From: Pyrinomonadaceae bacterium
Lineage (GTDB): Bacteria > Acidobacteriota > Blastocatellia > Pyrinomonadales > Pyrinomonadaceae
DNA length: 64,000 bases
Direction of reading: 5' to 3'
Assembly (NCBI GenBank): GCA_035645695.1
Contig: DASQMC010000079.1
Coordinates: 3,402 to 67,401 of the forward strand
Part shown: piece by piece, positions 38,203-56,309 of the stretch
Layout of the letters: the number at the start of each line of letters is the position of its first letter
Position numbering within the stretch: position 1 is the first letter of the stretch
Notes under the pieces: generated by a model
Seen by the model: only the letters and a program-made list of their open reading frames with translations
What the model was told of the DNA's origin: nothing
Database searches by the model: none
Position numbers and translations under genes: made by a program

Positions 38203-41046
38203 TTACCCGCGACCCAAAACGTTCCGCCGCTCGCTCACGTTCTGCGGGTGTGCGGGCGCGAGATAACTCTCGGCCAGATGCTCCTCGCCGAGCAGCATCG
38301 GGCGCATGAGGCCGGGCGCGCGGCTGCCGAGGTCGAGCAGCGTGTCGTCGCCGAGCCGCACCTCGCCGAGACGAAACATCGCCCAGTAGAACTTGATGTC
38401 GAACGTTGTGTGCGCGGGTTTTTCGAGTTCGACGATGCGCCGCGCGAGTTCGCGCATGCCGCGGTGCGCGGCCGCGTCGAACGTGTCGGTTTGCCGCATC
38501 GGCAACAACACCGTGAATTTGTGCGCCGTCCCGCGCATCGCCAACACGAGCCCCTCGAATTGATACCAGTCGTTCAGCGGTTCGCCGCCCGGCGGCAGGC
38601 TCGACGGCAAACTTACGTCGGCAAAGGCGTCGGGCTGCGTCTTGTAGGCCGCGCCGAGCGCGTCGAGGTGCGGGTAGCGGCGCGCGAGAAAGTTCTCCCA
38701 GGCCGCCGCGTCGGCCGCGGTCGCCGAGGGAACGAATCCGAGCACGGAGCGCGAGAAGGCTTCCCAAGCCTTGCCCGCCGCGCCCCCCGGTCGCCTGACG
38801 GGATAAAGCTCGCCGCCCGCGAGACCCAACCTCTCGCGATAAGACGCGTGCAACGCCTCGCTGCCCTGCGATGGCTGCCAGCGCGTCTCCTGCTCGACCA
38901 GACGCGGGGCGAACGCTCCTGTCGGGTCGCCGAAGACCACGCCCGGCACGCGGCGCGTGCGATACCGCTCGACGACGCGAATGCCGTACGCGCCCGATGA
39001 GGCGGCTGATGCGGCCGCTTCGTCCGTGAAAGCTTCGTCCTCGACGCACTCGTCCGAGACGAGCCTGAGCGCGAGTTCGAGTCCGTGCATCGTGCCGCGA
39101 TACCGGAAGAAGAACATCGCGTGCCGGATGAACAGCCGCCGCTTCGCCTCGTTCCACACCGGATCGAGCGCGACGCCGTACCAACCGGCGAGCCATTCGA
39201 GCGCGTCGGCGGGCGCGCTCCGCACGTCGAACAATGCCTGCACCGCCGCGATCTTATCTTCGAGCGACGTGTACAAGCCTTCGAGATTGGCGAGGAAGCG
39301 TTCGAGAAACGAAGCCGATTGATCGTCTTCGCGATAGACGGACGGCAGGTAGCGCACGACGTAGGAGAAGCGCGGGTAGTAAGCGCGCAGGGCACGCAGT
39401 CTCGGCGTGGCGCGTTCGTTGCCCTCAAGCGTGATCTCCATTTGCATGTACCGGCCGCGCGCTCGTTGAAAGAGCAGTTCCCAGGTTCCCTTGCCTTCCG
39501 CCCTGCGTTTCGCCGCCCCAGCCTTGCTGTCGCCTCCGCCGCCGTCGCGCGCGCCCGTCGCGTGGTTCGCATAGGGCAACTCCGACCCGTCGCCGCGCAG
39601 GTAGAGACGCGGCTCTCGCGACCATTCGGCGAGCGCAAGGTCGTCCTCGTTATTCGCCGCGCGCGTGCGCACCTCGACGCGCGTGCCCGGCGGGATGCAC
39701 GCGTCAAACATCAGGCGATGCCACACGCAATCGGGCTCCGCGCCGTCGAAAGCGCGCGTGTAGAACGTTCCCGTCGCGGCGTAGCGCGGTCGTCGCTGTT
39801 CGACGAGCGGAATCCAACGCCCGTCGAAATCGTAGTAAGCCTGCGTGCCTGCACGCACCAGCCCCTTGCCGCCGAACAGACGCATCGGCAGGTAAGCCGC
39901 GACGGGTTCGAGTTTGAGTTGCACGCGCTTGCGCCACTTCAGGTTGAAGGCGTAACTCTGGTTGCCGTCCGAGGAGACGATGTAGAGGCGGTCGGGTTCG
40001 CCCGTCGCGGCGCGGCGCGGGACGAAGGCGAAGTCGTAACCGATGAGGCTGAAATCCGCCCGGCTGTCCGCTTCGATCAACTTCAACATCACCTTTGTCG
40101 AGCGCGACTGCCCCAGCCGCTTGCCCCCGCGATAGCGATGCACGCGCGCAAACTTCCGCCCGGCGCGATAGTCGAGAACGAGCACCGAGCCGTCCGGCAA
40201 CGCTTCGATGGCGATGGGCTTCGTGATGTAAATCCGTGCGGAAGTTTTGAGGGTAAGGCGTTGCGGCAAATCGCAGGCGCGAGCGTCGCCCTTCTGCTCC
40301 GGGTCGCGCGGCTCGAAGTCCTCGGCCTCCGGCGTCGCGGGCGCGTAGGCGGCGGGCGGGATGACGTTGAACTGGCGGTCGAGTTCCCAGTAGCGTTTAT
40401 TCGCGCCGTCGAGTATGAGGACGCCGCCGCCCGAGCGCGCCGCCATGTCGAGCGGCTCGAACGGCACGCCGCGCGGCCACCACAACTGCTGCGGCGCGCC
40501 GCCCGCGTGGAGATCGAAGACCAAAATTCCGGCCGGTTCCAACACCCCGGCGACCAGATAATGATCTTCCGTGACGGCGAGCGAGCGCAAAGCGAGTGGC
40601 GGGCAGTTCGTCGCGGCGACGGGTTTGAAATCGACCGGCGGCGCATCGGGCGCGCAAGCGGCGCTGCCTTCGACCGGCCAGAAGATTGTGGTTCGCTTCG
40701 TGCCCGCCGAGTTGACGAGAATCTTTCCGGCCGTCTCGTCGATCCAGTACCAGTTGCCATAGCGGTCGCGCCCGCCTCCGCGCCGGTTCTCGAAGGCGGG
40801 CGGCTTGTCGTCGGGCGCGGCTTCAAACTTGAAGAGGCGCGGCGGAAGCGTCAACTCGTGTTGCTCGGAGTTCCAGGCGGCGGGCGCGGATCGGGGCGCG
40901 ATCTTCGTCTCGTTCTGATCGGGCGGCGCGGCATGCCAACGCTCGCGCAGAAGAGTCGCCCCCGGCGCATCGGTGCATTCGCCCCAATCGTCAAAGCCGA
41001 GCAACAGGTGATAGCGCGTTCCGTTGGCGTCCACGTCTCTTAACAC
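38203..41046 (-). CDS. Baseplate protein, P2 gpI-like phage tail protein with large N-terminal extension (Afp12-like)
   Basis: The conserved block is RYLPSVYREDDQSASFLERFLANLEGLYTSLEDKIAAVQALFDVRSAPADALEWLAGWYGVALDPVWNEAKRRLFIRHAMFFFRYRGTMHGLELALRL, the tail-protein-I signature. A GTG start overlaps the baseplate J stop. Confidence 0.85.
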   Translation of the reverse strand: MLRDVDANGTRYHLLLGFDDWGECTDAPGATLLRERWHAAPPDQNETKIAPRSAPAAWNSEQHELTLPPRLFKFEAAPDDKPPAFENRRGGGRDRYGNWYWIDETAGKILVNSAGTKRTTIFWPVEGSAACAPDAPPVDFKPVAATNCPPLALRSLAVTEDHYLVAGVLEPAGILVFDLHAGGAPQQLWWPRGVPFEPLDMAARSGGGVLILDGANKRYWELDRQFNVIPPAAYAPATPEAEDFEPRDPEQKGDARACDLPQRLTLKTSARIYITKPIAIEALPDGSVLVLDYRAGRKFARVHRYRGGKRLGQSRSTKVMLKLIEADSRADFSLIGYDFAFVPRRAATGEPDRLYIVSSDGNQSYAFNLKWRKRVQLKLEPVAAYLPMRLFGGKGLVRAGTQAYYDFDGRWIPLVEQRRPRYAATGTFYTRAFDGAEPDCVWHRLMFDACIPPGTRVEVRTRAANNEDDLALAEWSREPRLYLRGDGSELPYANHATGARDGGGGDSKAGAAKRRAEGKGTWELLFQRARGRYMQMEITLEGNERATPRLRALRAYYPRFSYVVRYLPSVYREDDQSASFLERFLANLEGLYTSLEDKIAAVQALFDVRSAPADALEWLAGWYGVALDPVWNEAKRRLFIRHAMFFFRYRGTMHGLELALRLVSDECVEDEAFTDEAAASAASSGAYGIRVVERYRTRRVPGVVFGDPTGAFAPRLVEQETRWQPSQGSEALHASYRERLGLAGGELYPVRRPGGAAGKAWEAFSRSVLGFVPSATAADAAAWENFLARRYPHLDALGAAYKTQPDAFADVSLPSSLPPGGEPLNDWYQFEGLVLAMRGTAHKFTVLLPMRQTDTFDAAAHRGMRELARRIVELEKPAHTTFDIKFYWAMFRLGEVRLGDDTLLDLGSRAPGLMRPMLLGEEHLAESYLAPAHPQNVSERRNVLGRG

Positions 41047-43406
41047 TCCTCCGGTATCAAAGGCACGGGCACGATGCGTTTCCCCTTGCCCGTGGTGGTG
41101 CCGCCGCCCGTGCCGTCGCTGCCGCCGGTCGTCTCGCCGCGCAGAGAGTCGAGCGAGAGCGGGTCGCCGATCTGGACGGAAATCCCCGCGACGCGCGGCA
41201 GTTGCAGCCCCGAGAGGATGATCTCGCCCGTCCCCGCTTCGCTCCCCTTCGCGATCAAAACATCTTTCACGGAGAGCACGCCCTCCTGTCGGCTTGCGAC
41301 GGCGAGCAGTTCGCGATCCGTGATGCTCTTGCGTAGCGGCCAGCCGTTCTGCGCGGCGGCGTATTGCGGCGTGGTCAGGAGAGCCGCCTGAGTTTCAAGC
41401 ACAGGCACGCCCGAGGGTGGCAGGGGCGAGAGAAACTGTAAGAGCGCGAGTTTGACCGCCTCGCGCACCTGCGCGACCGATGTGCCCGCCACGACGCTTA
41501 ATCCGACCGACACCCAGACGGGAACGTATTCCGGGCCACGCAGGAACACTTCCGTCGTGATCAGGCGGCGCGGGTCGAGGTATTTGCAGATGGCTTCGAG
41601 GAAAAGTTTGTCGGGCAGCGGCGCGTCCGGCTGTTTGGCGTCGTAGCGCGGGATAACCATGAGCGTGACCGCGCCGGGAGCGTCGCCCGGCTCGCTCCTC
41701 GTGAGCGCGGGATTGTAGGCGGGCAACACGTCCACGCGCCCGATCTGTATGCCGGGCGTGCGCAGGGCGATTGTCGAGAAGTCGGCGGCGTTGACGAGGC
41801 GGTCGCGGTGCTGCAAGTATCGCGCGATCTGCTTTTCGCCCTCGGCGACCGATTCCGCATCCGCGCCATTCCAGGTGCGCACGGGGTTCGAGACTTTGAA
41901 ACCGGCGGGCAGCGCCGGACTCGTGTTGATCGAACCAGTGCCGACGTTGCCCGCCATGCCGACGCCGTAATCGTAACTCGCGCGTATCGTCGCGCCCGCC
42001 GGAGGCCGCCGCCCGCGCGTGCCGTCGCCGAAGCGTATCTCGCCCGACTCGTGGTTGACCGTGAAAACTTCCGTGAGCGTCGCGCCCCCGGCGGGCACGC
42101 CCGGCGGCAGGCGCGCGTCCAGCACGGGCACTTCAGACCCTGCGGCGTAGAGGTCGTCGATCTCCTGCCACAAGCGCGTCTGCCCGTCCTTCGGCGTGAC
42201 GGTTAAACGCGTGGAGCGCGCGACGACGGGCTTTTGCGACAGGAAGGCAATTTGATCGGGCGCGCCGGTGCCGGGCGGCAGCAGTTCGTTCGAGACGCGC
42301 GCGCGCTGCGAGACGAAGGCCGTGTTGATGCCGACCCACAGCAGGCGCGCCCCGGCAGCCGTCGCAGACGGGCGGATGCGCAGCCACGTCACGACGCGCT
42401 CGTTCAGATTCGTGTCTTCGAGCGCGGGCGGAAAATCGCCGACGCCCGGTTCGAGCGGATCGAGGTTCGTCCAGAGTTTGAGTTCGTCCTTGTTGCCGGG
42501 CAACGTGATCTCGACGACGCCGGGTTTCGTCAGCACGTCCGTCGGCGCGCGTGCGTCGAGCGGTTTATATTTCGCCACGCGCAACTCAGGGTCGTCGGGC
42601 AAGGTCGTGCCTCCCGAGACGTTCGGGATTTCATAACTCAGTTGCGTCTGCGAGGCTGCGCTCGCGGCTTGGCCGAGCGGCATCAGGGCGCGCGTCGCGG
42701 CGGCGAGCGCGGGCACGATGCCGAGGCTGATCGTGCGACCGGCGATGGCCTCGCGGATGCTGTCACGCAAATCTTCGAGCGCGGTTTCGGTCGTGCCGGA
42801 AGGCTTGTCGCCCGCGCGCGTCAGGAGCGCGATCCAGAGCGCGCCGTCGCTCGTCTCCGCGCCGATGTCGATACCGTCGGCGAGTTTCGCGTCGAGCGGA
42901 ACGGTCTCGTAGAGTTCGATTGTCGCGTCGTCAACCTCCGCGTCGTTGTAGGAGGCGTAGAGCAGTTTGTAATAATCCGTAAGGGTATGATCGGTCGTTG
43001 TGAGTTTGCGTTTGAAGAAGACCTGCGCTTCGACGGGCAACACGTCGAGTCCCTGCACGGTGCGAAACGGAACCTGACCGGCGCGCACTTCGAGGCCGTC
43101 ATTGAGCGTGACGGTCTGCGCCGCGCCGCGCTCGTTCGTGAACTGGACGAGGCCGACCGCCGCCGAAGCCGTTTGCAGGGGCACGCCGAGCAGCGAGAGA
43201 AACTTGCGGCGGTTGCGTTCGGGAATCTGGTTGCTGCGATAGAGCAGATTCTCCGTCAGGAAAGCGAAGATTTCGATGAGCGTCACGCCGGGGTCGCTTT
43301 TGTTGAAATTCGTCCACTCAGGATTATGGACGGGCACGCGCGCCAGCGCCTCGTCGAGCAACTCCTGATAGCGGCGATCATCCAGATTCGGAATCTGCAA
43401 CGGCAT
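41040..43406 (-). CDS. Baseplate J-like protein (Afp11 / gp6-like)
   Basis: The N-terminus MPLQIPNLDDRRYQELLDEALARVPVHNPEWTNFNKSDPGVTLIEIFAFLTENLLYR is the classic putative-baseplate-assembly-protein start. Confidence 0.9.
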   Translation of the reverse strand: MPLQIPNLDDRRYQELLDEALARVPVHNPEWTNFNKSDPGVTLIEIFAFLTENLLYRSNQIPERNRRKFLSLLGVPLQTASAAVGLVQFTNERGAAQTVTLNDGLEVRAGQVPFRTVQGLDVLPVEAQVFFKRKLTTTDHTLTDYYKLLYASYNDAEVDDATIELYETVPLDAKLADGIDIGAETSDGALWIALLTRAGDKPSGTTETALEDLRDSIREAIAGRTISLGIVPALAAATRALMPLGQAASAASQTQLSYEIPNVSGGTTLPDDPELRVAKYKPLDARAPTDVLTKPGVVEITLPGNKDELKLWTNLDPLEPGVGDFPPALEDTNLNERVVTWLRIRPSATAAGARLLWVGINTAFVSQRARVSNELLPPGTGAPDQIAFLSQKPVVARSTRLTVTPKDGQTRLWQEIDDLYAAGSEVPVLDARLPPGVPAGGATLTEVFTVNHESGEIRFGDGTRGRRPPAGATIRASYDYGVGMAGNVGTGSINTSPALPAGFKVSNPVRTWNGADAESVAEGEKQIARYLQHRDRLVNAADFSTIALRTPGIQIGRVDVLPAYNPALTRSEPGDAPGAVTLMVIPRYDAKQPDAPLPDKLFLEAICKYLDPRRLITTEVFLRGPEYVPVWVSVGLSVVAGTSVAQVREAVKLALLQFLSPLPPSGVPVLETQAALLTTPQYAAAQNGWPLRKSITDRELLAVASRQEGVLSVKDVLIAKGSEAGTGEIILSGLQLPRVAGISVQIGDPLSLDSLRGETTGGSDGTGGGTTTGKGKRIVPVPLIPEEC

Positions 43407-43475: not shown

Positions 43476-43871
43476 CTAACCTGCGAGCACCACGTTCAAA
43501 CTCACGCTCTGCGAGGCGCGTGTTGCAACGAGTTTGTAATTGATCGTGGCGACCACGGCCTGCGCGTCTCCCTCGTCCGGCTCGACCGTTACCGATTCGA
43601 CCGCGATGCGCGGCTCCCAACGCGCCAGTTCCTTCGTGATGCGATCCTTGATCAACTGTCTCGTCGTCACCGTGTTCGGCTCGAAAAGGTAAAGATTGAG
43701 GCTGCCGCCGAAGTTCGCGAGACGCAGGCGCTCGCGCTGCTCGGTCAGGAGAATCACGCGTATGCTCTCGCGCACGTTCGTCTCGCCCTCCGACCATGAG
43801 ACGCGTCCATCCGCCCCGACGCGCGGCGGGAAACTAATGCCCTTGCCGAATATGCGGCCGCCGTTATTCAT
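43476..43871 (-). CDS. GPW/gp25 baseplate wedge protein (Afp9-like)
   Basis: The 131-aa protein has GKGISFPPRVGADGRVSWSEGETNVRESIRVILLTEQRERLRLANFGGSL and ITKELARWEPRI, which are typical of the gp25 family. Confidence 0.9.
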   Translation of the reverse strand: MNNGGRIFGKGISFPPRVGADGRVSWSEGETNVRESIRVILLTEQRERLRLANFGGSLNLYLFEPNTVTTRQLIKDRITKELARWEPRIAVESVTVEPDEGDAQAVVATINYKLVATRASQSVSLNVVLAG

Positions 43872-43880
43872 CGTTCGCCC

Positions 43881-46061
43881 TCACCCCTTCGCCTTCTTCG
43901 CGCTGAAGCCCGGCAGCGGGAAACAGATCAGGAAATACGGAAGCCAGCGGAAAATGATGTCGAGCAGGTTCACGATGATCATCAGCAGGAGCAGCGCGCA
44001 GATCGTGATGATCGGGATCGAGAGCGAGCAGATCATGCCGAACTCCAAAGTCCCGCCCGGCTCTTTGCAGGGGCCTTTGTCGGGCGCGGATAAATCCTTG
44101 TGCAGCGGCCACGGCAGCACGGAGCGCACGAGGTCGCCGAGATTCATGCCCTTGGCGCGGTCGATCTGCCCGCACAGCATGTCGGAGATCATGAAGGCAG
44201 TGTTTTTGTCGAACTTCCGCAAGCCCGCCGGCGACGTGTCGAGAGGCATCGCGATGCGAATTGGGCGCGCGGGCGCGTCGGGGTCGAAGAAACTCGCCAA
44301 CTGGAAGGCGCGCGTCGGCGCGCTGACCACTGGCGGATCGACCGGGCCGCATTCGGGTCGCTCGTAGACGCAGCGCACGACGAACCAGCCCTCTCGCGTG
44401 TCCAGAACTTTCTGCGCCGCGAGCGGGAGAGGCGCGGCGTATGAACTCTCTCCCTCCGGGAGCGCGGCGGCGACGAGGCTCGCGAGGTGCGACACGCGAC
44501 CGGCGGCTTTCAGGAAACGATCCGTGTCGTCCGTTGCGCCCGGAGCTTTAGGCGCGAGCGGCCCTTCGAATTCCGTGTCAGCGAGCGGGAAGAGGAAGGT
44601 CGGCCACTTCGCATCGGGGTTGTCGCGCAGGTAAGCGGTCGAGACGGATTCGAGATCGTCTTCCAGCTTCGCGGCCTTCGCTGCGTCGAGCGGCGTGCCG
44701 CCGCGAATGGCCTTGAGCGCGTCGGCCAGAGTTTTGGAGACATCCTTCGCCTGATAGCCGACGCCTTTCACCAGCGACTTCAATTCGTCCGCGGCGGCAG
44801 GCGTCTCGTTCGTCAGTTTCGTGTAAGTCGCTTGATCGAAGGCGGTGGCCGCGAGCGCGCCGACGAGCGCGGCTTCCGGCGCGGAGAGTGCGGGCGTCGC
44901 CGCGCCCGTGACGGTCTTCCACACGCCGGGCAGGTATTGTTCGAGGTATTTGGCGAAGTCGAGAAGGATGTACCACGAGACTGTTTGAATCTGCTCGCGC
45001 AGAGACTTCAAAGTCCCCTTCTTCGCCGTCGGGTCGAAGGCTTCATCGTCGGTCTTAGGCAACGGCGGCGGATTGAACATTTTGTAAGTCGCGCCCGCGC
45101 GCTCGATGAGGCGCGTCCACGGTTCTGTCACGTCCAACCAGAGCGGCATCATGCGCGGGTCAACCGGCCGGTCATTGTCTGTCGCGGAGGCGTCTCCCGT
45201 CGCGGCGTTCGCCCCGGCCGTCGCGCCCGAAAGCGCGCCCGCGCCCATGTAGTTCTCGCGTTTGCCGACGGGGATGAAGCCCGTCAGGACGCGCCGCCTG
45301 TGGCCGTCGTCCTGCGTGTAGTTGACGGGAAACAGCGGCAATTGTTCCTCGCCCGCGACGAGCACGTCGGCGCGCGCCGCCGGTGCGATGCCGCCTCCTG
45401 ATGCCGTCGATACTTTCCGCCAACCGGTGCCCGCCGCCGTCGTCGCAAGCGCGTATTCTTCCCAACTTCCCTCGTCGAAGTCGGGCAACTTCTGCGAGCG
45501 ATCAATTTGCCCGTTCGCATCGAGAAAGTTCGGCGGCAGCAGCCGCCTGACGACGAACGACGCACGCTCGTCGCGCGCGGGATTCACGGCGCGATCCGGC
45601 AACCCCGCGCGACCGCACACGAGACAGGCCGTGATTAGGTAGAAGCGTTGATGCGCCGGTTGATAGAGCTTGAGGGGCGCCGAGGCTGAGGCGTCGGAGA
45701 TTGCGACGCTCGCGCTGCCGTTCAACGTCGTGAGCGCGCCGCCCGACGTGGCGAGCGTCTTCGCGTTCTTTTTCTCCGATGCAAGGCGCAGGCGATTCAA
45801 GGGACGCAGGAACGCGGGCTGCCTGACGACGGGCGCGACGGGCGGCGAAGGACCGCGCCACGTCTCCGGCTGCGCGACGAGTTGAGAGAGCCGCGCCGGG
45901 TCGTTCTCCAACAGCGCGAGGTAATCGTCCATGAACTTGTCGGAGGCAAAGCGCAGGATGGCCGGGCGGCGCAAGGTGCGGCGGCGCACGGCGATTTCCG
46001 CCGCGCCTGCCGCTTCAGGCCACAGGGGCGCGGGCGCTGTCCATTGCACTACGTCTCGCAT
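43881..46061 (-). CDS. Unassigned 726-aa CIS protein with C-terminal hydrophobic membrane anchor, in the slot normally held by PAAR
   Basis: It has an ATG start with a GAGGA SD, 7 nt after the spike gene stop. The C-terminus is FGMICSLSIPIITICALLLLMIIVNLLDIIFRWLPYFLICFPLPGFSAKKAKG. The internal motif is LKLYQPAHQRFYLITACLVCGRAGLPD. No family name is known to me. Confidence 0.7.
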   Translation of the reverse strand: MRDVVQWTAPAPLWPEAAGAAEIAVRRRTLRRPAILRFASDKFMDDYLALLENDPARLSQLVAQPETWRGPSPPVAPVVRQPAFLRPLNRLRLASEKKNAKTLATSGGALTTLNGSASVAISDASASAPLKLYQPAHQRFYLITACLVCGRAGLPDRAVNPARDERASFVVRRLLPPNFLDANGQIDRSQKLPDFDEGSWEEYALATTAAGTGWRKVSTASGGGIAPAARADVLVAGEEQLPLFPVNYTQDDGHRRRVLTGFIPVGKRENYMGAGALSGATAGANAATGDASATDNDRPVDPRMMPLWLDVTEPWTRLIERAGATYKMFNPPPLPKTDDEAFDPTAKKGTLKSLREQIQTVSWYILLDFAKYLEQYLPGVWKTVTGAATPALSAPEAALVGALAATAFDQATYTKLTNETPAAADELKSLVKGVGYQAKDVSKTLADALKAIRGGTPLDAAKAAKLEDDLESVSTAYLRDNPDAKWPTFLFPLADTEFEGPLAPKAPGATDDTDRFLKAAGRVSHLASLVAAALPEGESSYAAPLPLAAQKVLDTREGWFVVRCVYERPECGPVDPPVVSAPTRAFQLASFFDPDAPARPIRIAMPLDTSPAGLRKFDKNTAFMISDMLCGQIDRAKGMNLGDLVRSVLPWPLHKDLSAPDKGPCKEPGGTLEFGMICSLSIPIITICALLLLMIIVNLLDIIFRWLPYFLICFPLPGFSAKKAKG

Positions 46062-46068
46062 CGATTCC

Positions 46069-46785
46069 TCACCAGATGTTTCCCGCGCCGGGCGTGTACG
46101 ACGCGCTGATCACCGCATTGCTGATCAGGGTGTCGCACTGCACGACGCCGCTGAATTTCGACATCCCCGAATCGACCGTTACCATCGAGGCCGACACCTG
46201 CACGAGCGACGCGTTGATCGTCACCTTCGCCGAGGCGTTGACGGTGATGCCGCTCGGCTCCAGCTTGATCGAGTTGCCGTTGCTGTCCACGATCTCGACG
46301 GTGCCGGGGCCGTCCTTGAGCGTCACCTTCTGCCCGCCGGGCGTTTCCAGAATCATCTGCTCCTGCCCGTCCGTATCGTCGAGCGTCACCTTGACGCCGT
46401 TGCGCGAGCGCAGGACTTTGCGATAGTTGTTGCCCGCAGCGTCCATCGAATCGGGCGGCGCGTCGCTGCCGTTCCACAATCCGCCGATGACGTAAGGGCG
46501 GCGCGGGTCGCCTCCCTCGAACGTGACGAGCACCTCGTCGTTCACGTCCGGCACGAACCAACTGCCGCGATTGTTCCCGCCCATCAAAGTAGCCAGCCGC
46601 GCCCAAGCCTCGTAGCGCCCGCTACCCGTGTCGGCCGACCACGGCAGCGTGATCTTCACGCGCCCCTGGCCGTCCGGGTCTTTTATGTCGCTGACGAGCG
46701 CGGGGAACACGCCGTACCAGCGACCGCCCAGCCCGGCCGGTTGCCGCACGTCCAGGATCATCTCCAGTTGATTCTTCTCACCCAC
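46069..46785 (-). CDS. Spike protein, gpV/gp5 OB-fold plus beta-helix (C-terminal half of a VgrG/Afp8 equivalent)
   Basis: The OB-fold segment is YGVFPALVSDIKDPDGQGRVKITLPWS...WARLATLMGGNNRGSWFVPDVNDEVLVTFEGGDPRRPYVIGGLWN. It is followed by a repetitive beta-helix (VTLDDTDG.., VTLKDGPGTVEI.., IKLEPSGITVNA..). The GTG start at 46785 is uncertain; an alternative ATG is at 46761. Confidence 0.85.
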   Translation of the reverse strand: MGEKNQLEMILDVRQPAGLGGRWYGVFPALVSDIKDPDGQGRVKITLPWSADTGSGRYEAWARLATLMGGNNRGSWFVPDVNDEVLVTFEGGDPRRPYVIGGLWNGSDAPPDSMDAAGNNYRKVLRSRNGVKVTLDDTDGQEQMILETPGGQKVTLKDGPGTVEIVDSNGNSIKLEPSGITVNASAKVTINASLVQVSASMVTVDSGMSKFSGVVQCDTLISNAVISASYTPGAGNIW

Positions 46786-46811: not shown

Positions 46812-47882
46812 CTAAACCCTGCCGATGCCCGGTCGTTCGGCGCGAAATTCCGTGCGGATGCCATTGGCTCTGTCGAAGAGGTGTTTGACCTCCGTGACGT
46901 AGTACTTGCCCGAAAACAGCGGGCCGAGTTCTTTCAAATCGACGAACACGCCCGCGCGCAGATCGGGCTTCGTCTCCGCCGTGCCGTAGCCGACGATGAA
47001 GCGGCGCGCGCTGAGGCGGAAGAAGGTTTCCGCTTCATACTGAGCCTCCTGGCTGTTGAGCGGGATGGTGTGCGCGAGGGCTTCCCTGCGCGCGCCGAGC
47101 GCGGATTGCAAAATGCTCACGCCGCTCGTGTCGCCGTTCAGTTCGCTCGTGATGACGGACTCGGTGGCCTCGTAAGTCAGCGCGCTCTTGCCCGGCACGT
47201 CCCAGCCGTTAACCGTGACGCTCGTGCGCTGCATGGCGAGATCGGCCAGCGCCTTGAAGTCGCGCAGTTGCGCGCCGCGCTTCAATTCGAGAGTTGCGCC
47301 GCCGCGATTCCCGTGCGTCCTGGCGTTCAGGGTGCTTCCCTCCATCCAGAGTTCCGCGTCAATCGCGCGCGCACGCTCGCGCGCGAAGGCGAGGTCGCTC
47401 TGGTTGACCTGCGCGAGCACCCTGTAGGTCGGCCCAGCGACGCTCACGCTCGGACTCAAACCGTGATCGCTGGCGATCTGTTTGAACACGTCCGCGTCGG
47501 TCGCATCGGCGAAAGTGCGCGTGCGGCGCGTCATGCGTAAATCCTGAAAGCGATCTTCGGCGAGGACGGCGATGTCCGGCGCTTGCCCTTCGGGGAAGCC
47601 CGCTTCGAGTCCCATGATGCGCCCGTCGAAAATGTTCCGGTCGCCGATCTTCACTTGAAACGCCTTGCCGAAGTCGAGCGTGCGGCGGTCGAAGTAGAGG
47701 TAATCCGTCGTGTTGTTGACGTTGCCCCAATTACTGAAACGCGCCTCGCAACGATAGAGGCCGCTCGTGTTCTCGACGATGCTCAAACGGTTGAGGCCGC
47801 CCGCGAGGGCGGGTTGTTCCGTCCCGCCAACGTGGATGGCGGGGGTCGAAGAAACTAATCCTGTGGTTATATCGTCGGCCAT
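46812..47882 (-). CDS. Phage late control gene D-like protein (N-terminal half of a VgrG/Afp8 equivalent)
   Basis: The 356-aa protein contains RLSIVENTSGLYRCEARF...FDGRIMGLEAGFPEGQAPDIAVLAEDRFQDLRMTRRTRTF...VFKQIASDHGL...VNQSDLAFARERA, which is gpD-like. Confidence 0.8.
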   Translation of the reverse strand: MADDITTGLVSSTPAIHVGGTEQPALAGGLNRLSIVENTSGLYRCEARFSNWGNVNNTTDYLYFDRRTLDFGKAFQVKIGDRNIFDGRIMGLEAGFPEGQAPDIAVLAEDRFQDLRMTRRTRTFADATDADVFKQIASDHGLSPSVSVAGPTYRVLAQVNQSDLAFARERARAIDAELWMEGSTLNARTHGNRGGATLELKRGAQLRDFKALADLAMQRTSVTVNGWDVPGKSALTYEATESVITSELNGDTSGVSILQSALGARREALAHTIPLNSQEAQYEAETFFRLSARRFIVGYGTAETKPDLRAGVFVDLKELGPLFSGKYYVTEVKHLFDRANGIRTEFRAERPGIGRV

Positions 47883-47888
47883 AAAATT

Positions 47889-48068
47889 TTAGTGCGCCCG
47901 GACGCGCTCGGCGCGCTCCGCCTGCTGTTGCCACATGCGCTCGAACTCTTCGGGCTTCGGCTCGTCGCCGCCGCCGCCCCCATCCCCTCCCGCGCCGCCG
48001 CCTCCGCGTTTCTTCGAGTCGCCCGTATCCGCCACGTCAACGTTCATCTGATCGATCACCACCGCCAT
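47889..48068 (-). CDS. Small conserved-position CIS protein (Afp6/DUF5908-like?), Gly-rich and acidic
   Basis: The ATG at 48068 has a GGAGG SD 8 nt upstream. The sequence is MAVVIDQMNVDVADTGDSKKRGGGGAGGDGGGGGDEPKPEEFERMWQQQAERAERVRAH. The gene sits between the LysM tube initiator and the spike genes. Confidence 0.55.
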   Translation of the reverse strand: MAVVIDQMNVDVADTGDSKKRGGGGAGGDGGGGGDEPKPEEFERMWQQQAERAERVRAH

Positions 48069-48083
48069 CGCTCTCACCTCCCT

Positions 48084-48974
48084 TTAAAACAGATCGCCGA
48101 CTTCCAGCTTGATGTTCGTCTCGATTGACCCCGCGCCGCCCTGCGCCGATAACGAAGACGACGCCCCGAACGAGGGAGATGCTCCGAATGGCGCGGTTGC
48201 TCCGAATGAAGACGACGCCCCGAACGACGCGGATGCTCCGGCGGAACCTGTGACGCCCGCGCCGAACGAGCCGCCGCCGGAGCCGCCCGCGTTCATGTCG
48301 AGCAGTTGGCCGGGTTCGAGCATGCGCGGGTTTTCGATGTTGTTGGCGGCGGCGATTGATTGCCAGTCGTCGCCTTTGCCCTGGCTGTCGGCGAGTTCCG
48401 GCAAGCTCTTGTCCTTCGGGGCTTCGGTCAGGCGGCGCGTGCCGGGCGTCTGCGCGGCGGAGGCGTCCACGTCTTTAATCGTGAACTCCGTGATCTTCTG
48501 CTGCGACAAATTGAGCGTCATGCTCGCGCGCAGCGGGCGGCCTTCGGGCGAGAAGAATTCGAGCGACTCTTCGAGCGACTCCATCAAACCGTCGAACTGA
48601 AACGACCCCCAGATGAAGCGCACCGACGGCGGCACGTAATTCTTGCCCTCCTGCACGGGCGTGATGAAATAGGCCACCTTCTGCGTCAGCTTGCGCACGT
48701 CGTTTTCCGCCGTCTCCCCCTCGGGCATGGGCTGGGTTACGTCGAACCAGAGTTGGAGGACGAGTTTGGTCGTGCCCGCGCCGACGAACTGGCGCGCGGG
48801 CGTTCCCTTCTGGTCGCCCGCGCCCGCGGGCGTCGCGATCTGGTTGGCGAACGAGACCTTCAGCGACTCCGGGTTGAACTGCACCTTCGCAGTCTTCTCC
48901 GGGTTGATCTCGTTCTTGAACTCGGCATCCAACTGCCGCAGTTCGGCTTTTTCCAGTTTGACCGAATCAGGCAT
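48084..48974 (-). CDS. Tube-initiator-like protein with C-terminal LysM domain (Afp7-like)
   Basis: The ATG at 48974 has a GGGAG SD. The N-terminal tube-like segment is VKLEKAELRQLD...AKVQFNPESLKVSFANQI. The LysM-like segment is GDDWQSIAAANNIENPRMLEPGQLLDMN. The track ORF extension to 49052 reads through the heptamer repeat (HSSLIT) and is not credible. Confidence 0.8.
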   Translation of the reverse strand: MPDSVKLEKAELRQLDAEFKNEINPEKTAKVQFNPESLKVSFANQIATPAGAGDQKGTPARQFVGAGTTKLVLQLWFDVTQPMPEGETAENDVRKLTQKVAYFITPVQEGKNYVPPSVRFIWGSFQFDGLMESLEESLEFFSPEGRPLRASMTLNLSQQKITEFTIKDVDASAAQTPGTRRLTEAPKDKSLPELADSQGKGDDWQSIAAANNIENPRMLEPGQLLDMNAGGSGGGSFGAGVTGSAGASASFGASSSFGATAPFGASPSFGASSSLSAQGGAGSIETNIKLEVGDLF

Positions 48975-48997
48975 CTCGACTCCCGGCGACGGTGCGG

Positions 48998-49188
48998 AAG
49001 TGATGAGTGATGAGTGACGAGTGATGAGCCGGAAAACCATCCCGCTCGCCACGCATCTTCTCGTCTCTCGTCATCTCTCGCTCATCGCTTTCAACTCATC
49101 ACTCATTACTCATCACTCATTACTCATTACTCATTACTCATTACTCATTACTCATTACTCATTACTCATTACTCATCACTCATCACTT
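48998..49188. repeat. Heptamer microsatellite hairpin: 13 x ACTCATY facing 4 x GATGAGT
   Basis: A tandem array of ACTCATC/ACTCATT runs in perfect 7-nt register from 49094 to 49184. Reverse-complement copies (aagtgatgagtgatgagtgacgagtgatgag) lie at 48998-49028. The terminal 18 nt (aagtgatgagtgatgagt / actcatcactcatcactt) are perfectly complementary. Confidence 0.9.
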
Positions 49189-49196
49189 CTCCCCGC

Positions 49197-49685
49197 TCAT
49201 TGCCCGGACGTGCCGGTGTTGTCTTTGAGCGAGAGCGATTCATAGGCAAGCTGGAGTTCTTCTATCGCCACCGCGCCGTCTTTCGCGTTGAGCGGCGGGG
49301 CTTTGAGTTTGACCGGGACGCAGCGCGAGAGGATGAAGCGCGCGCTCTCGGTCGTGCCGTCGGGGGCGAAGACGACCACTTCGGCGTCGGCGCGCGTCTC
49401 GGGGTTCGTCAACATCAGGTTCACCCACCTCCACAGGTCGAACGTCTCGGTCATGCCTCGCCTGAGCGTGACCGACCCGAAGTTGAGCGGCCCGGTCAGG
49501 CGAATCTGCTTGCCGTTGTTGCCGCCCTCTCGGATGGTCTTGACCTCCATCGTTATTTCCAGCCCGTCGCACTCGGCGAAGGCCGCGTCGCAAATCTGCA
49601 TCGCCACACCGTCAACCCTGATCTCGACCGAGAAGTTGAAGGCGACGAACGGGTAGACGACCGTCTCGTTGGCGGATTTCGTCAT
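49197..49685 (-). CDS. Tail tube protein paralog 2 (Afp5-like)
   Basis: The sequence is [17 protein letters not shown]...[53 protein letters not shown]. This is the same pattern as the tube gene at 52766..53218. Confidence 0.88.
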
Positions 49686-49689
49686 TGCG

Positions 49690-52653: not shown

Positions 52654-52765
52654 CGCTCACCCCATTTGCCGGAGAGTCCGGCAACAACCATCCGGCGAAG
52701 ACGCGCTCGAACGCTCCCCTCTTAACAGAGCGTTATCGGTCGCGCAGTCGCCAGCCACGGACGGC

Positions 52766-53218
52766 TTATTCCATTTCCAGACGCTCGTAGGCGAGCGTCA
52801 ACTCTTCCATCGCCACGTCCGTACCCCTGGCGTTCATCGGGCCGCTGACGTGCTTGATGATGCGCGCGCGCAGCAGTTTCCAAGTCTGGACGACCGCCGT
52901 GTGATCCTCGTTCTGCAACTGGATGACAACCGTGCGCTCGGCCATCTGGTTGCCGTTGCGTATGTCGTCGAGCCACCTGTAGAGATTGAGCGAGCCGATC
53001 ACGCCGCGCTTCAAAGTGACATCGGTTGCCTTGTTGAGGCCGGTGATTTTGCGCACGCTGTTCTCTTTCGAGTTGCCCGTGCGATATTCCGACACGGTTA
53101 CTTCCATGCCGATGTTGCTGCACTCCTGAAAACCCGCCTCCACCCCGTCGGTCGTGCCCGTGCCGAGGTCGACCAGAAAATTGAACTGCACATACGGACG
53201 ATCACGTAGGACTGCCAT
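52766..53218 (-). CDS. Tail tube protein paralog 1 (Afp1-like, T4 gp19-type)
   Basis: The sequence is MAVLRDRPYVQFNFLVDLGTGTTDGVEAGFQECSNIGMEVTVSEYRTGNSKENSVRKITGLNKATDVTLKRGVIGSLNLYRWL. A GAGGAGAA SD lies upstream. Confidence 0.9.
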   Translation of the reverse strand: MAVLRDRPYVQFNFLVDLGTGTTDGVEAGFQECSNIGMEVTVSEYRTGNSKENSVRKITGLNKATDVTLKRGVIGSLNLYRWLDDIRNGNQMAERTVVIQLQNEDHTAVVQTWKLLRARIIKHVSGPMNARGTDVAMEELTLAYERLEME

Positions 53219-53233
53219 AATCTTCTCCTCAAA

Positions 53234-53308
53234 AACGATGAAGTAGGAACGATGAACGATGAACGGAAGAAAACTGCTTTTACTTCATCGTTCCGCGTTC
53301 ATCGTTCC
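53234..53308. repeat. Second GAACGAT-heptamer hairpin element (same repeat unit as 26953-27032)
   Basis: aacgatgaagt (53234-53244) pairs with acttcatcgtt (53282-53292). gaacgatgaacg pairs with cgttcatcgttc (53297-53308) as an alternative. It fills the sheath-tube intergenic gap. Confidence 0.8.
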
Positions 53309-53311
53309 GCG

Positions 53312-55357: not shown

Positions 55358-55367
55358 GACTTCTCCT

Positions 55368-56309
55368 TCAGGGCGGTGAACCCGCCGGGGTAATGAACAG
55401 CACCGACTGCGGAACAGGCGGTGAAACGGTGATCGAATCTTGCGACTTTAAAATCAATTCCTGTCCGTATTTCAATGTCACGCCCGCCAGTTCTTCGAGC
55501 GTGGCGAAATCAGCCCACAGCGTGGCGGGCGGCGCGTTGAGTTGGTCGAGCGTGGCGCGCAGGTCCGGGAGCGGCGCGAATTTGGTTGCGGCATCATCCT
55601 CCTGAGGCGGCGGGGCGTAACCGGCGTTTAAGGTCAACTCCCACGTCTGCTCAAGGAGCGGCACGTTTTTGTTGACCGGCGGCGAGGCGACCGGCGAGGC
55701 GAGCGGCGAATCGGTCGGCTTCGGATAGGGAAAGATGAGGGCGACGCTTCCGCGCTCGTCGCTCATTCCGCGCGCGTGCAGTTGGCCGTCAAGACGTGCC
55801 TCCAATACCGCCCATCGGGCGGGCGCGTTCGTGTGCGCGTTCCACAGGTCGGCGCGAACGACGGCCATGCCCGAATTCAGCGCGCGCGCCGGGGCGGAAT
55901 AGAGCGGGACGCTCCTTGCGCCTTCGGGCGGCGAAGGCTCTAAGGGCGACAGCCAGTTGTAGAGGCCGCGCGGGGCGGGCAGCTCAACCTCGAATCGGAA
56001 AGGCTGAAAGCGACGCTCCTGATCGACGACCTCGACCACGAACGTTTGCGACGGCGGCAAGTTCAGCCAAAACTCTTCGTCGCCCGCGCCGTGTTCAAAG
56101 GCGCGCTGTAGTCCCGGCGCATGGTGCAGGACGTATGTTCCCGAACGATTGACGAAGGCTTCGACGCGCCGCGCGCTGTTGTTCGACGGGTAGACCGTCA
56201 CGCTCAGGCCGCCGCCGACGTTTTCGCCCGTCGCCGCATCGTGAAAGCGCAGCCCGACCGGCGCGACGAGCGTCAGCCTTTCCAACACCTGTACGGGTTT
56301 GAAGACCAT
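55368..56309 (-). CDS. CIS-associated hypothetical protein with two transthyretin/CarboxypepD_reg-like beta-sandwich segments
   Basis: The segments are VGLRFHDAATGENVGGGLSVTVYPSNNSARRVEAFVNRSGTYVLHHAPGL and VVRADLWNAHTNAPARWAVLEARLDGQLHARGMSDERGSVALIFPYP. The start overlaps the cap gene stop (TGATG). Confidence 0.55.
   Translation of the reverse strand: MVFKPVQVLERLTLVAPVGLRFHDAATGENVGGGLSVTVYPSNNSARRVEAFVNRSGTYVLHHAPGLQRAFEHGAGDEEFWLNLPPSQTFVVEVVDQERRFQPFRFEVELPAPRGLYNWLSPLEPSPPEGARSVPLYSAPARALNSGMAVVRADLWNAHTNAPARWAVLEARLDGQLHARGMSDERGSVALIFPYPKPTDSPLASPVASPPVNKNVPLLEQTWELTLNAGYAPPPQEDDAATKFAPLPDLRATLDQLNAPPATLWADFATLEELAGVTLKYGQELILKSQDSITVSPPVPQSVLFITPAGSPP

What the first reader, a model, noticed from the sequence alone, without database searches (positions are those of the whole stretch)
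43881..46061. 726-aa unassignable protein with C-terminal membrane anchor replaces PAAR between spike and gp25
In Afp/PVC-type loci a roughly 100-aa PAAR cone gene sits between the spike and baseplate wedge genes. This locus has no PAAR-sized credible ORF anywhere in the cluster. Instead, a 726-aa protein is translationally packed into that slot: 7 nt after the spike stop and 9 nt before the gp25 start. It ends in a very hydrophobic, Cys- and Ile-rich segment (ICSLSIPIITICALLLLMIIVNLLDIIFRWLPYFLICFPLPGF) followed by a basic tail. Candidate roles are a novel spike-tip or membrane-inserting module, an anchor tethering the baseplate to a host membrane, or a non-classical payload.
Basis: partly seen in the sequence, partly recalled or inferred. 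Interest (0 to 1): 0.78.

Follow-up and report, generated by a model that had tools for sequence, protein, structure and literature searches.

The report
Membrane-anchored core protein of PAAR-less injection system
The 726-residue gene is real and belongs to a large, unnamed protein family that always sits between the spike and gp25 genes of one phage-tail-like injection system lineage lacking the usual PAAR spike tip; its near-invariant hydrophobic C-terminus suggests it ties the spike end of the machine to a membrane, but this is untested.

Summary
Observation confirmed. ORF 43881..46061 (-) encodes 726 aa. It starts 7 nt after the gpV-type spike stop and ends 9 nt before the gp25 start. Its only hydrophobic stretch is at residues ~674-719, followed by a basic tail. 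No PAAR domain was found in the window, or within 10 kb of 82 related loci.

The protein is not a one-off. It represents at least 1,556 50%-identity clusters and occurs in 256 species genomes from about 8 phyla. None has a Pfam, NCBIfam, PHROG, PDB-sequence or Foldseek match. The order gpD-gpV-X-gp25-gpJ-gpI is invariant: the spike is upstream in 77/77 loci, and X follows the spike in 71/71 loci fetched through the spike.

The gene content fits eCIS subtype IIb, which Chen et al. 2019 reported as the only PAAR-less subtype and which has not been characterised.

The hydrophobic block is the most conserved part of the protein. The spike's C-terminal tip is likewise near-invariant and lineage-specific.

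Best reading (0.45): a tail-anchored baseplate/spike-tip subunit that docks the machine to the producer's inner membrane. This would be analogous to TssL, CisA or Cis13, though it is homologous to none of them. Main rival (0.27): a particle-borne, membrane-inserting spike cap. "Replaces PAAR" is plausible but unproven. In Afp, the PAAR gene follows gp25 rather than preceding it.

The parts
43881..46061 (-). Target ORF: 726 aa, an unnamed family that is a core gene of a PAAR-less CIS lineage
   Evidence: No Pfam, NCBIfam, PHROG or PDB match.
45192..46061 (-). Residues 1-290: moderately conserved N-terminal alpha/beta region (small alpha/beta unit, long helix, beta-rich domain 130-262). No signal peptide.
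   Evidence: AF2 pLDDT is mostly 75-95. Conservation is 0.5-0.7. No hydrophobic N-terminal segment.
44442..45164 (-). Residues 300-540: variable, mostly helical middle region. This is the site of insertions of up to about 330 aa in Desulfobacterota homologues.
   Evidence: DSSP helices 304-533. Conservation is 0.2-0.6. Long variants P0209, P0215, P0227 and P0234 carry middle insertions, not fusions.
44037..44399 (-). Residues 555-675: ultra-conserved C-terminal module (RCVYERPxCGP ... FFDPDAPARPIRI ... SPAGLRKFDKN ... SDMLCGQ ... LPWPxHKD ... GPC) with invariant Cys and His residues. It does not fold confidently as a monomer.
   Evidence: Majority frequency is 0.70-0.90. Invariant columns are listed. 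pLDDT is below 50-65 in both AF2 runs.
43905..44036 (-). Residues 676-719: hydrophobic helix or hairpin (MICSLSIPIITICALLLLMIIVNLL-DIIFRW-LPYFLICFPLPGF). This is the most conserved block of the protein.
   Evidence: Kyte-Doolittle peak 2.86. Eisenberg mean hydrophobicity 0.74-0.89 with low moment for 674-700, and an amphipathic-hydrophobic 689-715. Majority frequency 0.90-0.92 for 681-700. AF2 helix 681-713, with pLDDT 87-96 in the fragment run.
43884..43904 (-). Residues 720-726: short basic tail (SAKKAKG). Homologues never extend more than about 8 residues beyond the hydrophobic segment.
   Evidence: Match ends against protein lengths.
46069..46785 (-). gpV-type spike (gp5 OB fold plus beta-helix), a split-VgrG C-terminal half. 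Its C-terminal 45 aa are almost invariant and lineage-specific.
   Evidence: PF04717 at 2.4e-25. Closest solved spikes are Anabaena tCIS All3320 and AlgoCIS. Tip conservation is 0.92. The tip has no counterpart in any solved spike.
46812..47882 (-). gpD/gp27-like hub, the split-VgrG N-terminal half
   Evidence: VgrG_rel 5.4e-24 and a weak Phage_GPD hit. PF05954 is assigned in homologous loci.
47889..48077 (-). 62-aa ORF before the hub. It is conserved at 56-62 aa in related loci and may be an Afp6/Cis6-like spike plug.
   Evidence: No family hit. The role is inferred from position only.
43476..43871 (-). gp25/TssE-like baseplate wedge protein
   Evidence: PF04965 at 5.4e-20.
41040..43406 (-). 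gpJ/Afp11/Cis11-like baseplate protein, single copy
   Evidence: TIGR02243 at 1.1e-68 and Baseplate_J. The closest solved structure is the Streptomyces CIS baseplate protein in 9gtp.
38203..41046 (-). gpI/Afp12/Cis12-like baseplate protein
   Evidence: Tail_P2_I and CIS12_fam.
48084..49052 (-). Tube-initiator-like protein (CIS_tube plus LysM; Afp7/Cis7-like)
   Evidence: PF19266 at 1.7e-28.
49197..56896 (-). Upstream tail module: Pvc16_N cap (56309-56896), 314-aa unknown, sheath (53312-55357), tube (52766-53218), 987-aa sheath-like protein (49690-52653), tube (49197-49685)
   Evidence: The sheath is closest to Streptomyces CIS 8bky/8bl4 and to 9ezm, at about 1e-104.
27044..29170 (-). Afp15-like single-AAA ATPase closing the cluster
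   Evidence: PF00004 at 1.9e-24.

Best explanation
The gene encodes the lineage-defining membrane subunit of a PAAR-less contractile injection system whose gene content matches eCIS subtype IIb. Shown: it is a real, strongly conserved protein, always encoded between the gpV spike and gp25. It has a roughly 590-residue N-terminal part predicted to fold into a structure with no known relative. It also has a near-invariant C-terminal module of about 170 residues, ending in a hydrophobic segment of about 45 residues and a short basic tail. It has no signal peptide. Inferred: the N-terminal part stays in the cytoplasm and docks onto the centre of the baseplate (hub/spike, gp25, gpJ/gpI). The C-terminal helix or hairpin inserts post-translationally, tail-anchor style, into the producer's cytoplasmic membrane. 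The conserved module just before it sits at or around the equally invariant spike tip. The protein would then hold the spike end of the loaded machine against the inner membrane. Contraction would drive the spike through that membrane. This is a TssL-, CisA- or Cis13-like adaptor role, and it would also cover the tip that PAAR covers in other systems. The variable helical middle would act as a spacer.
For: The protein is a core gene, not cargo. The spike is upstream in 77/77 genome loci and gp25 is next in 76/79. The target follows the spike in 6/6 viral and 65/65 metagenome loci fetched through the spike alone. The same order holds in Desulfatitalea and Ca. Tenderia, where the start overlaps the spike gene by 7 nt. 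It carries the only transmembrane-like segment in the structural module. The segment is C-terminal, there is no N-terminal signal, and tails after it are about 8 aa or less. The hydrophobic block and the preceding module are the most conserved parts, at 0.85-0.92 against about 0.5 elsewhere. The conserved module does not fold as a monomer in AF2, which suggests it is an interface. The spike tip is near-invariant and unlike any solved spike. No PAAR was found in the window or near 82 related loci. The sheath and gpJ are closest to the Streptomyces cytoplasmic CIS. Both characterised lineage II systems act at the producer's membrane through lineage-specific membrane proteins (PMC12237407, PMC11566945). 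tCIS uses a transmembrane helix on a baseplate-bound protein (PMC8894136). No dedicated chaperone gene for a hydrophobic segment is evident next to it.
Against: There is no direct evidence of membrane insertion, particle association, stoichiometry or binding partner. Passive anchors usually have poorly conserved transmembrane segments, so the extreme conservation fits a more active or oligomeric role. The basic tail and R705 argue against simple C-out tail-anchor topology; a hairpin is possible. In diderm hosts a lone inner-membrane anchor does not explain passage of the periplasm and outer membrane. Distance covariation tracked gpI, gpJ and gpD more than the spike, but this is confounded. Two conserved downstream proteins with a shared N-terminal module could be fibres, which would suggest an extracellular mode. 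The subtype IIb assignment rests on gene content, not phylogeny.
Confidence: 0.45

Rival explanations
1. Particle-borne spike cap. The conserved C-terminal module binds the spike tip, as a functional substitute for PAAR. The hydrophobic helix or hairpin is shielded within the assembled baseplate. On firing it is driven into the target cell's membrane, where it helps penetration or forms a conduit, much like a fusion peptide or a colicin-type hydrophobic hairpin.
For: PAAR is absent while the spike tip is near-invariant and lineage-specific. The gene sits immediately after the spike and is translationally coupled to it. All faces of the hydrophobic helix are conserved, as expected for a segment that must satisfy both a buried and a membrane state. 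The conserved module needs a partner to fold. The roughly 45-residue hydrophobic stretch with an N..D break at 698-701 could form a hairpin.
Against: There is no PAAR motif, profile or fold similarity. An 80-kDa protein, with up to 330 aa of extra inserts in some lineages, is bulky for a piercing tip. No chaperone gene that could keep the segment soluble is apparent. The nearest characterised relatives act from inside the cell (PMC12237407, PMC11566945). Covariation with the spike was the weakest of all partners (confounded).
Confidence: 0.27
2. Assembly factor, scaffold or length-determining (tape-measure-like) protein. It would nucleate hub and wedge assembly at the membrane but be absent from, or internal to, the mature particle.
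For: No Afp14-type tape measure was recognised in the cluster, and Chen et al. 2019 report afp14 as generally missing in lineage II. The gene lies between the hub/spike and wedge genes. The middle region is helical and varies in length.
Against: AF2 predicts compact alpha/beta domains with high confidence rather than an extended helical ruler. The C-terminal hydrophobic segment and its extreme conservation are not explained. The length varies through discrete inserts in otherwise syntenic clusters.
Confidence: 0.1
3. Spike-loaded effector: a pore-forming toxin delivered as non-classical cargo.
For: It has a C-terminal hydrophobic segment reminiscent of membrane-targeting T6SS toxins, and it is encoded next to the spike.
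Against: Effectors vary between loci, whereas this gene is present 1:1 in every locus examined across about 8 phyla with invariant position. There is no adjacent immunity or chaperone gene. No toxin family or fold match was found.
Confidence: 0.06
4. C-terminal protein-sorting signal of the PEP-CTERM or MYXO-CTERM type (motif, transmembrane helix, basic cluster) on a secreted protein unrelated to the machine.
For: The layout looks tripartite: an invariant G663-P-C665, then a hydrophobic helix, then a basic KKAKG tail.
Against: There is no signal peptide. NCBIfam sorting-signal models gave no hit. The hydrophobic stretch is about 45 residues and near-invariant, unlike sorting helices of about 20 variable residues. 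Linkage to CIS genes is strict across phyla.
Confidence: 0.02

Closest known systems
PAAR-repeat spike tip proteins (Afp10, Cis10, T4 gp5.4, T6SS PAAR)
   Same: Encoded in the baseplate module next to the spike and gp25. The lineage carrying the target is the one that lacks PAAR, so the spike tip needs either no cap or a different cap.
   Different: PAAR is about 100 aa, a beta-cone with three PAAR motifs, and soluble. The target is 726 aa with no PAAR motif, no Pfam PF05488/PF13665 hit and no Foldseek match to PAAR structures, and it has a C-terminal hydrophobic segment. In Afp the PAAR gene follows gp25.
TssL (DotU), the tail-anchored inner-membrane subunit of the T6SS membrane complex
   Same: A cytoplasmic domain followed by a single C-terminal membrane segment. 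It is encoded in a contractile-system cluster and links the baseplate (TssE/gp25 side) to the inner membrane.
   Different: There is no sequence or fold similarity. The target is about three times larger. TssL works with TssM and TssJ, which are absent here. The TssL transmembrane helix is not known for extreme conservation (my own knowledge).
CisA of Streptomyces coelicolor (type IId cytoplasmic CIS)
   Same: A lineage-specific membrane protein encoded in a lineage II CIS cluster and required for firing at the producer's membrane (PMC12237407). The sheath and gpJ of this window are closest to that system.
   Different: CisA has a disordered cytoplasmic N-terminus, a mid-protein transmembrane helix and a folded periplasmic C-terminal domain, and it is encoded after the baseplate genes. 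The target is a folded cytoplasmic protein with a terminal hydrophobic segment and no extracytoplasmic domain, and it is encoded between spike and gp25.
Cis13 of the Anabaena thylakoid-anchored CIS
   Same: A baseplate-bound structural protein whose transmembrane helix anchors the machine to a membrane. Deleting the helix gives free-floating particles (PMC8894136).
   Different: Cis13 is a short trimeric fibre-like protein at the baseplate periphery, and that system keeps a PAAR-like Cis10. No similarity to the target was found (7b5h is in the Foldseek library).
Hbor_38620, putative anchor of the haloarchaeal clade IIa T6SS-like CIS
   Same: An uncharacterised membrane protein that co-occurs strictly with one CIS clade and is proposed as its anchor (PMC11566945).
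   Different: It has six transmembrane helices and a cytoplasmic domain of about 150 residues, and it is encoded upstream of the core cluster. It is not related to the target.
eCIS subtype IIb 'subtype-specific conserved genes' (Chen et al. 2019)
   Same: The gene content matches: split afp8, single afp11, afp12 present, a small afp6-position ORF, no afp10. The paper notes 2-3 conserved domain-less genes per lineage II subtype and asks whether they compensate for missing afp genes.
   Different: The paper gives no sequence, name, topology or function for these genes in its main text. Identity of the target with one of them is inferred, because the figures and supplements could not be read.

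Membership tests
PAAR-repeat proteins (PF05488 PAAR_motif; PF13665 PAAR-like) | Profile match to a PAAR domain | tested here: not met
   No Pfam hit for the whole protein or for three sub-fragments, even at E <= 10.
PAAR-repeat proteins (PF05488 PAAR_motif; PF13665 PAAR-like) | About 100-aa beta-cone fold with three PAAR-type motifs | tested here: not met
   The Foldseek PDB search gave no match (best E 0.44). There is a single APARP string and no motif cluster. Caveat: residues 600-680 are modelled with low confidence, so their fold is untested.
PAAR-repeat proteins (PF05488 PAAR_motif; PF13665 PAAR-like) | Binds the blunt end of the spike beta-helix | not testable with these tools
   No multimer prediction was available. 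The spike tip is near-invariant and lineage-specific, which is compatible with this feature but is not evidence for it.
eCIS subtype IIb (Chen et al. 2019) | afp8 split into gp27-like and gp5-like ORFs | tested here: met
   gpD-like ORF at 46812-47882 and gpV-like ORF at 46069-46785.
eCIS subtype IIb (Chen et al. 2019) | afp10 (PAAR) absent | tested here: met
   This covers the cluster only; the rest of the genome was not examined.
eCIS subtype IIb (Chen et al. 2019) | Single afp11 copy and a divergent afp12 present | tested here: met
   One Baseplate_J/TIGR02243 gene and one Tail_P2_I/CIS12 gene.
eCIS subtype IIb (Chen et al. 2019) | afp6 homologue present | tested here: inconclusive
   A conserved 56-62-aa ORF lies before the hub, but it has no detectable family match.
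eCIS subtype IIb (Chen et al. 2019) | Phylogenetic placement with reference IIb loci | not tested
   No reference IIb sequences or supplements were available.
Tail-anchored membrane proteins (topological class) | Single hydrophobic segment within about the last 50 residues, and no N-terminal signal peptide | tested here: met
   The only hydrophobic stretch is 670-719 of 726, and the N-terminus is not hydrophobic. AF2 gives a helix at 681-713.
Tail-anchored membrane proteins (topological class) | Actual post-translational insertion with the N-terminus in the cytoplasm | not testable with these tools
   This needs fractionation or reporter fusions. The basic tail makes a hairpin an alternative topology.
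TssL/DotU (PF09850) | Profile or fold match to the DotU cytoplasmic domain | tested here: not met
   No Pfam or NCBIfam hit and no Foldseek PDB match.
Tape measure proteins (Afp14/gp29 type) | Extended, almost all-helical or low-complexity chain able to fit in the tube lumen | tested here: not met
   AF2 predicts confident beta-rich and compact helical domains, with pTM 0.62.
PEP-CTERM / MYXO-CTERM type sorting signals | N-terminal signal peptide plus a C-terminal signal recognised by NCBIfam models | tested here: not met
   No signal peptide and no NCBIfam hit.

The most novel reading that the evidence does not exclude
Subtype-IIb-like CISs, found in at least 256 species across about 8 bacterial phyla, would operate by a mode not yet described. 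A single tail-anchored protein of novel fold both caps the PAAR-less spike and embeds its near-invariant hydrophobic hairpin in a membrane. That would give a minimal built-in membrane complex or translocon that pre-positions the spike in the bilayer. In effect this would be a one-protein replacement for PAAR plus TssJLM.
Probability: 0.25. Interest if true: 0.85.

Novelty: new variant of a known kind. Interest (0 to 1): 0.6.

Why it matters
How phage-tail-like injection systems meet a membrane decides whether they act as released particles, T6SS-like weapons or suicide devices. Each newly solved lineage (tCIS, Streptomyces, haloarchaea) has turned out to use its own adaptor. This family is the obvious candidate adaptor or tip for the one eCIS subtype that lacks PAAR and has never been studied. 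It is large, strictly linked to the spike, has no detectable relative in sequence or fold, and is unnamed in every database searched. Cultured hosts exist: Variovorax sp. J22P240, Solimonas soli DSM 21787, Aquabacterium sp. A7-Y, Caballeronia novacaledonica and Desulfatitalea alkaliphila. The hypothesis can therefore be tested directly by deletion, fractionation and cryo-ET. At minimum the family deserves a name and a profile model, so that these clusters stop being annotated as a run of hypothetical proteins.

Tried and rejected
(1) Family assignment. Pfam, NCBIfam and PHROGs on the whole protein and on fragments gave nothing, even at E <= 10. A PDB profile search gave only noise.

(2) Fold assignment. 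The full-length AF2 model (pLDDT 78.8) was searched with Foldseek against PDB and BFVD. The best E-values were 0.44 and 0.19, which is noise.

(3) Refolding the conserved C-terminal 182 residues alone with an 86-sequence alignment. pLDDT was 63.6 and only the hydrophobic helix was confident, so no fold search was attempted.

(4) Rosetta-stone fusion with the spike. The 833-1052-aa homologues turned out to carry insertions in the middle region, not fusions.

(5) Distance covariation between target domains and neighbouring proteins over 41 loci. The target tracks gpI, gpJ and gpD (r 0.82-0.90) more than the spike (0.59-0.67). This is confounded by protein length, by the low variation of the spike, and by gpJ and gpI being part of the background used for the partial correlations. 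I treat it as inconclusive.

(6) A hidden PAAR elsewhere. I scanned every gene-map ORF of the window and 134 unassigned ORFs from 80 loci, and ran a motif scan of all six frames. None was found. Only the first 25 of 29 families were listed.

(7) Sorting-signal, tape-measure and effector readings were considered and rejected, as set out under the rival explanations.

(8) Literature. No paper in the library describes this protein or any characterised IIb system. The supplements of Chen et al. 2019 were not available.
Full report
**Observation.** The minus-strand ORF 43881..46061 is present and encodes 726 aa from an ATG. The upstream ORF 46069..46785 ends in TGA, and 7 nt later the target's ATG follows. 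The target's TGA is followed 9 nt later by the ATG of ORF 43476..43871. Pfam identifies the upstream gene as a gpV/gp5-type spike OB domain (PF04717, 2.4e-25). It identifies the downstream gene as gp25 (PF04965, 5.4e-20). The quoted hydrophobic sequence is there. Residues 670-714 are the only stretch with a 19-residue Kyte-Doolittle mean of at least 1.6 (peak 2.86), and SAKKAKG follows it. It is also the only strongly hydrophobic segment among the core structural proteins of the cluster. An identical protein is on record as a hypothetical protein of a Pyrinomonadaceae (Acidobacteriota) MAG.

**The locus.** The surrounding minus-strand genes form a complete contractile injection system, in this order:
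- Pvc16_N cap, then a 314-aa unknown
- sheath, tube, a 987-aa sheath-like protein, then a second tube
- CIS_tube+LysM initiator and a 62-aa ORF
- gpD-like hub, gpV spike, the target, then gp25
- gpJ (TIGR02243) and gpI (CIS12-like)
- two unknowns of 485 and 442 aa
- a TIG-domain protein, an OMP-barrel protein and a 751-aa unknown
- an Afp15-like AAA ATPase

The sheath is closest to the Streptomyces CIS sheaths 8bky/8bl4 and to 9ezm (about 1e-104). The gpJ protein is closest to the Streptomyces baseplate protein in 9gtp. The spike is closest to Anabaena tCIS All3320 and to AlgoCIS.

**No PAAR.** None of the gene-map ORFs of at least 60 aa anywhere in the window hits a PAAR-type family at E <= 0.01-0.05. 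A loose motif scan of all six frames found only spurious Arg/Pro-rich out-of-frame ORFs. I also scanned 134 ORFs from 80 related loci that were not homologous to window genes. No PAAR family appeared among the families listed (25 of 29 families were shown). Precomputed Pfam calls for two further loci show none within 10 kb.

**Breadth and linkage of the family.**
- A word-indexed search gave more than 1,075 hits, all hypothetical and none with a Pfam domain.
- An exhaustive profile search of 1.84 billion representatives gave 1,556 clusters at E <= 1e-3, and 673 at E <= 1e-30.
- In the GTDB species genomes, 256 encode a relative. These come from Acidobacteriota, Chloroflexota, Bacteroidota, Verrucomicrobiota, Planctomycetota, Gemmatimonadota, Desulfobacterota, and Beta- and Gammaproteobacteria.
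- Cultured carriers include Variovorax, Solimonas soli, Aquabacterium, Caballeronia, Roseateles, Piscinibacter and Desulfatitalea.
- In the best 80 loci, the gene before the target is the spike in 77/77 cases with upstream DNA. The gene after it is gp25 in 76/79. The whole order from cap to the 442-aa gene is invariant.
- I also fetched loci through the spike alone, as an independent marker. That gave 6/6 viral-collection loci and 65/65 metagenome loci (with at least 300 nt downstream) carrying the target directly after the spike.
- In Desulfatitalea and Ca. Tenderia, the target's start overlaps the spike gene by 7 nt.

This is the signature of a structural core gene, not of cargo.

**Anatomy.** Alignments of 20, 54 and 86 sequences and per-block conservation show three parts:
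- Residues 1-290 are moderately conserved (0.5-0.7). They include motifs such as LKLYQPAHQRxYL and GEExLPLFP.
- Residues 300-540 are variable and mostly helical. Desulfobacterota homologues of 833-1052 aa carry large insertions here and are not fusions.
- Residues 555-726 are extremely conserved, at 0.77-0.92.

The single most conserved block of the whole protein is the hydrophobic stretch 681-700 (0.90-0.92; entropy 0.33 bits). Invariant Cys, Ser, Pro and Thr residues lie on all faces of the helix. No homologue extends more than about 8 residues beyond the hydrophobic segment.

AlphaFold2 with the 54-sequence alignment gives pLDDT 78.8 and pTM 0.62. Residues 1-590 contain confident alpha/beta and helical domains, and there is a helix at 681-713. 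The ultra-conserved 600-680 region is modelled at low confidence. Folding residues 545-726 alone did not help: pLDDT was 63.6 and only the helix was confident. A region this conserved that will not fold alone is most simply an interface that folds on a partner or in an oligomer; this is inference.

Foldseek found nothing in the PDB or in BFVD. The PDB library contains the baseplates of Afp, PVC, AlgoCIS, tCIS and the Streptomyces CIS, as well as PAAR and TssL structures.

The spike itself is unusually conserved across the family (mean 0.83). Its C-terminal 18 residues are its most conserved block (0.92...ISASYTPGAGNIW). That tip sequence has no counterpart in any solved spike.

**Literature.** Chen et al. 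2019 (PMC6899500) divide eCIS loci into six subtypes.
- Subtype IIb is the only one lacking afp10 (PAAR).
- IIb is the only lineage II subtype with afp6.
- It has a split afp8, a single afp11 and divergent afp12/13.
- Each lineage II subtype has 2-3 conserved genes with no known domain. The authors leave open whether these compensate for missing afp genes.

The window's cluster fits IIb on every gene-content criterion I could test. The afp6 criterion is inconclusive, and phylogenetic placement was not tested. The same paper's table lists Afp8, 9, 10 and 11 under consecutive accessions. In Afp, therefore, PAAR follows gp25 rather than lying between spike and gp25.

I found no paper characterising a IIb system or this protein. 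Other characterised systems each have their own membrane protein:
- The clade IIa haloarchaeal system works bound to the cytoplasmic membrane. A clade-specific 6-TM protein is its putative anchor (PMC11566945).
- The type IId Streptomyces system is cytoplasmic and needs the bitopic membrane protein CisA to fire (PMC12237407).
- The Anabaena tCIS, which is not a lineage II system, is anchored by a transmembrane helix on baseplate-bound Cis13 (PMC8894136).

**Mechanism.** I am fairly confident (about 0.8) that this is a structural, membrane-interacting core subunit of the baseplate/spike complex of a PAAR-less CIS lineage.

The specific model I favour (0.45) is as follows. The N-terminal 590 residues stay in the cytoplasm and bind the baseplate centre. 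The C-terminal helix or hairpin inserts tail-anchor style into the producer's inner membrane. The conserved module before it lies at the spike tip. The loaded machine is thereby docked spike-first on the membrane, in the functional manner of TssL, CisA or Cis13.

Steps that are shown: conservation, linkage, the position of the hydrophobic segment, the lack of a signal peptide, and the absence of PAAR. Steps that are inferred: insertion into the membrane, the binding partner, stoichiometry, and the direction of firing.

The main rival (0.27) keeps the protein on the particle as a non-PAAR cap whose hydrophobic hairpin enters the target membrane. The all-face conservation of the helix and the invariant spike tip fit this rival at least as well. 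The protein's bulk, the lack of a chaperone and the intracellular habits of the nearest relatives argue against it. Scaffold or tape-measure (0.10), effector (0.06) and sorting-signal (0.02) readings are less likely, for the reasons given under the rival explanations.

**Comparison and novelty.** The protein works, at most, like PAAR, TssL, CisA or Cis13. It is a member of none of these families; every testable defining feature failed (see the membership table). The locus is a member of a known kind of system. The protein is an uncharacterised, unnamed component whose existence was at most implied in 2019. I rate this a new variant of a known kind, with interest 0.6. It is not surprising that a lineage II CIS has its own membrane adaptor. 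However, this one is encoded in the spike/gp25 slot of the only PAAR-less subtype. It also has a novel fold and a transmembrane segment more conserved than the spike. It occurs in cultivable bacteria, which makes the question directly testable.

Noticed in passing
window 49690-52653 (-): A 987-aa second sheath-like protein with only a weak Phage_sheath_1 match (residues 715-856) and a long N-terminal extension. It is conserved in all related loci between the two tube genes.
   Followed up: partly
window 31513-33927 (-): An 804-aa protein with a hydrophobic N-terminal signal-like segment and a C-terminal OMP beta-barrel domain. It is encoded inside the CIS operon between the baseplate genes and the AAA ATPase. 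It was seen in only 2 of 80 fetched loci, but in the window it begins about 10 kb downstream of the target, at the very edge of the fetched flank, so its conservation is unknown. An outer-membrane partner would bear on an envelope-anchored mode of action.
   Followed up: partly
window 36660-38117 (-) and 35308-36636 (-): Two conserved unknown proteins (485 and 442 aa) directly after gpI share an N-terminal module of about 75 aa (36% identity, E 4e-8) and otherwise differ. They have no Pfam or PDB-sequence match. They may be paralogous baseplate-attached fibre or foot proteins.
   Followed up: partly
window 46069-46203 (-) (spike residues ~194-238): The C-terminal ~45 residues of the spike are almost identical across phyla, even in a locus whose OB and beta-helix part is divergent. 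They match no solved spike.
   Followed up: yes
window 47889-48077 (-): A 62-aa Gly-rich ORF between the LysM tube initiator and the hub, conserved at 56-62 aa in distant loci. It may be an Afp6/Cis6-like spike plug, but has no detectable family.
   Followed up: partly
window 57649-58605 (-): A SARP-type regulator (BTAD plus Trans_reg_C) lies close upstream of the cluster's first genes, together with a YdjM-family membrane protein (59178-60323) and a TPR protein (60419-61243).
   Followed up: no
window 63693-63995 (-): A 100-aa ORF near the window edge with a weak caspase (Peptidase_C14) match (E 0.0013, just under the curated cut-off), upstream of the CIS cluster. This is of interest given the cell-death role of the related Streptomyces CIS.
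   Followed up: no
window 19192-26946 (-): Downstream of the AAA ATPase lies a 1146-aa coiled-coil-rich protein with two hydrophobic segments (about residues 667-742). It is followed by a 198-aa ORF (22906-23502) and then a 1231-aa fusion of GT2, GT9, GT4 and methyltransferase domains. Whether they belong to the CIS operon is unknown.
   Followed up: no
window 53252-55300 (+) and 26972-29173 (+): Very long antisense ORFs (682 and 733 aa) lie opposite the sheath and AAA genes. This is the usual high-G+C artefact, not genes.
   Followed up: partly
L081 10001-12910 (Desulfatitalea alkaliphila) and P0209, P0215, P0227, P0234: Family members of 833-1052 aa carry 100-330-aa helical insertions in the middle region; those with a named source are Desulfobacterota (Desulfobacter, Desulfatitalea), while P0209, P0215 and P0234 have no organism label. 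The N- and C-terminal modules are kept. This is consistent with a spacer of adjustable length.
   Followed up: partly
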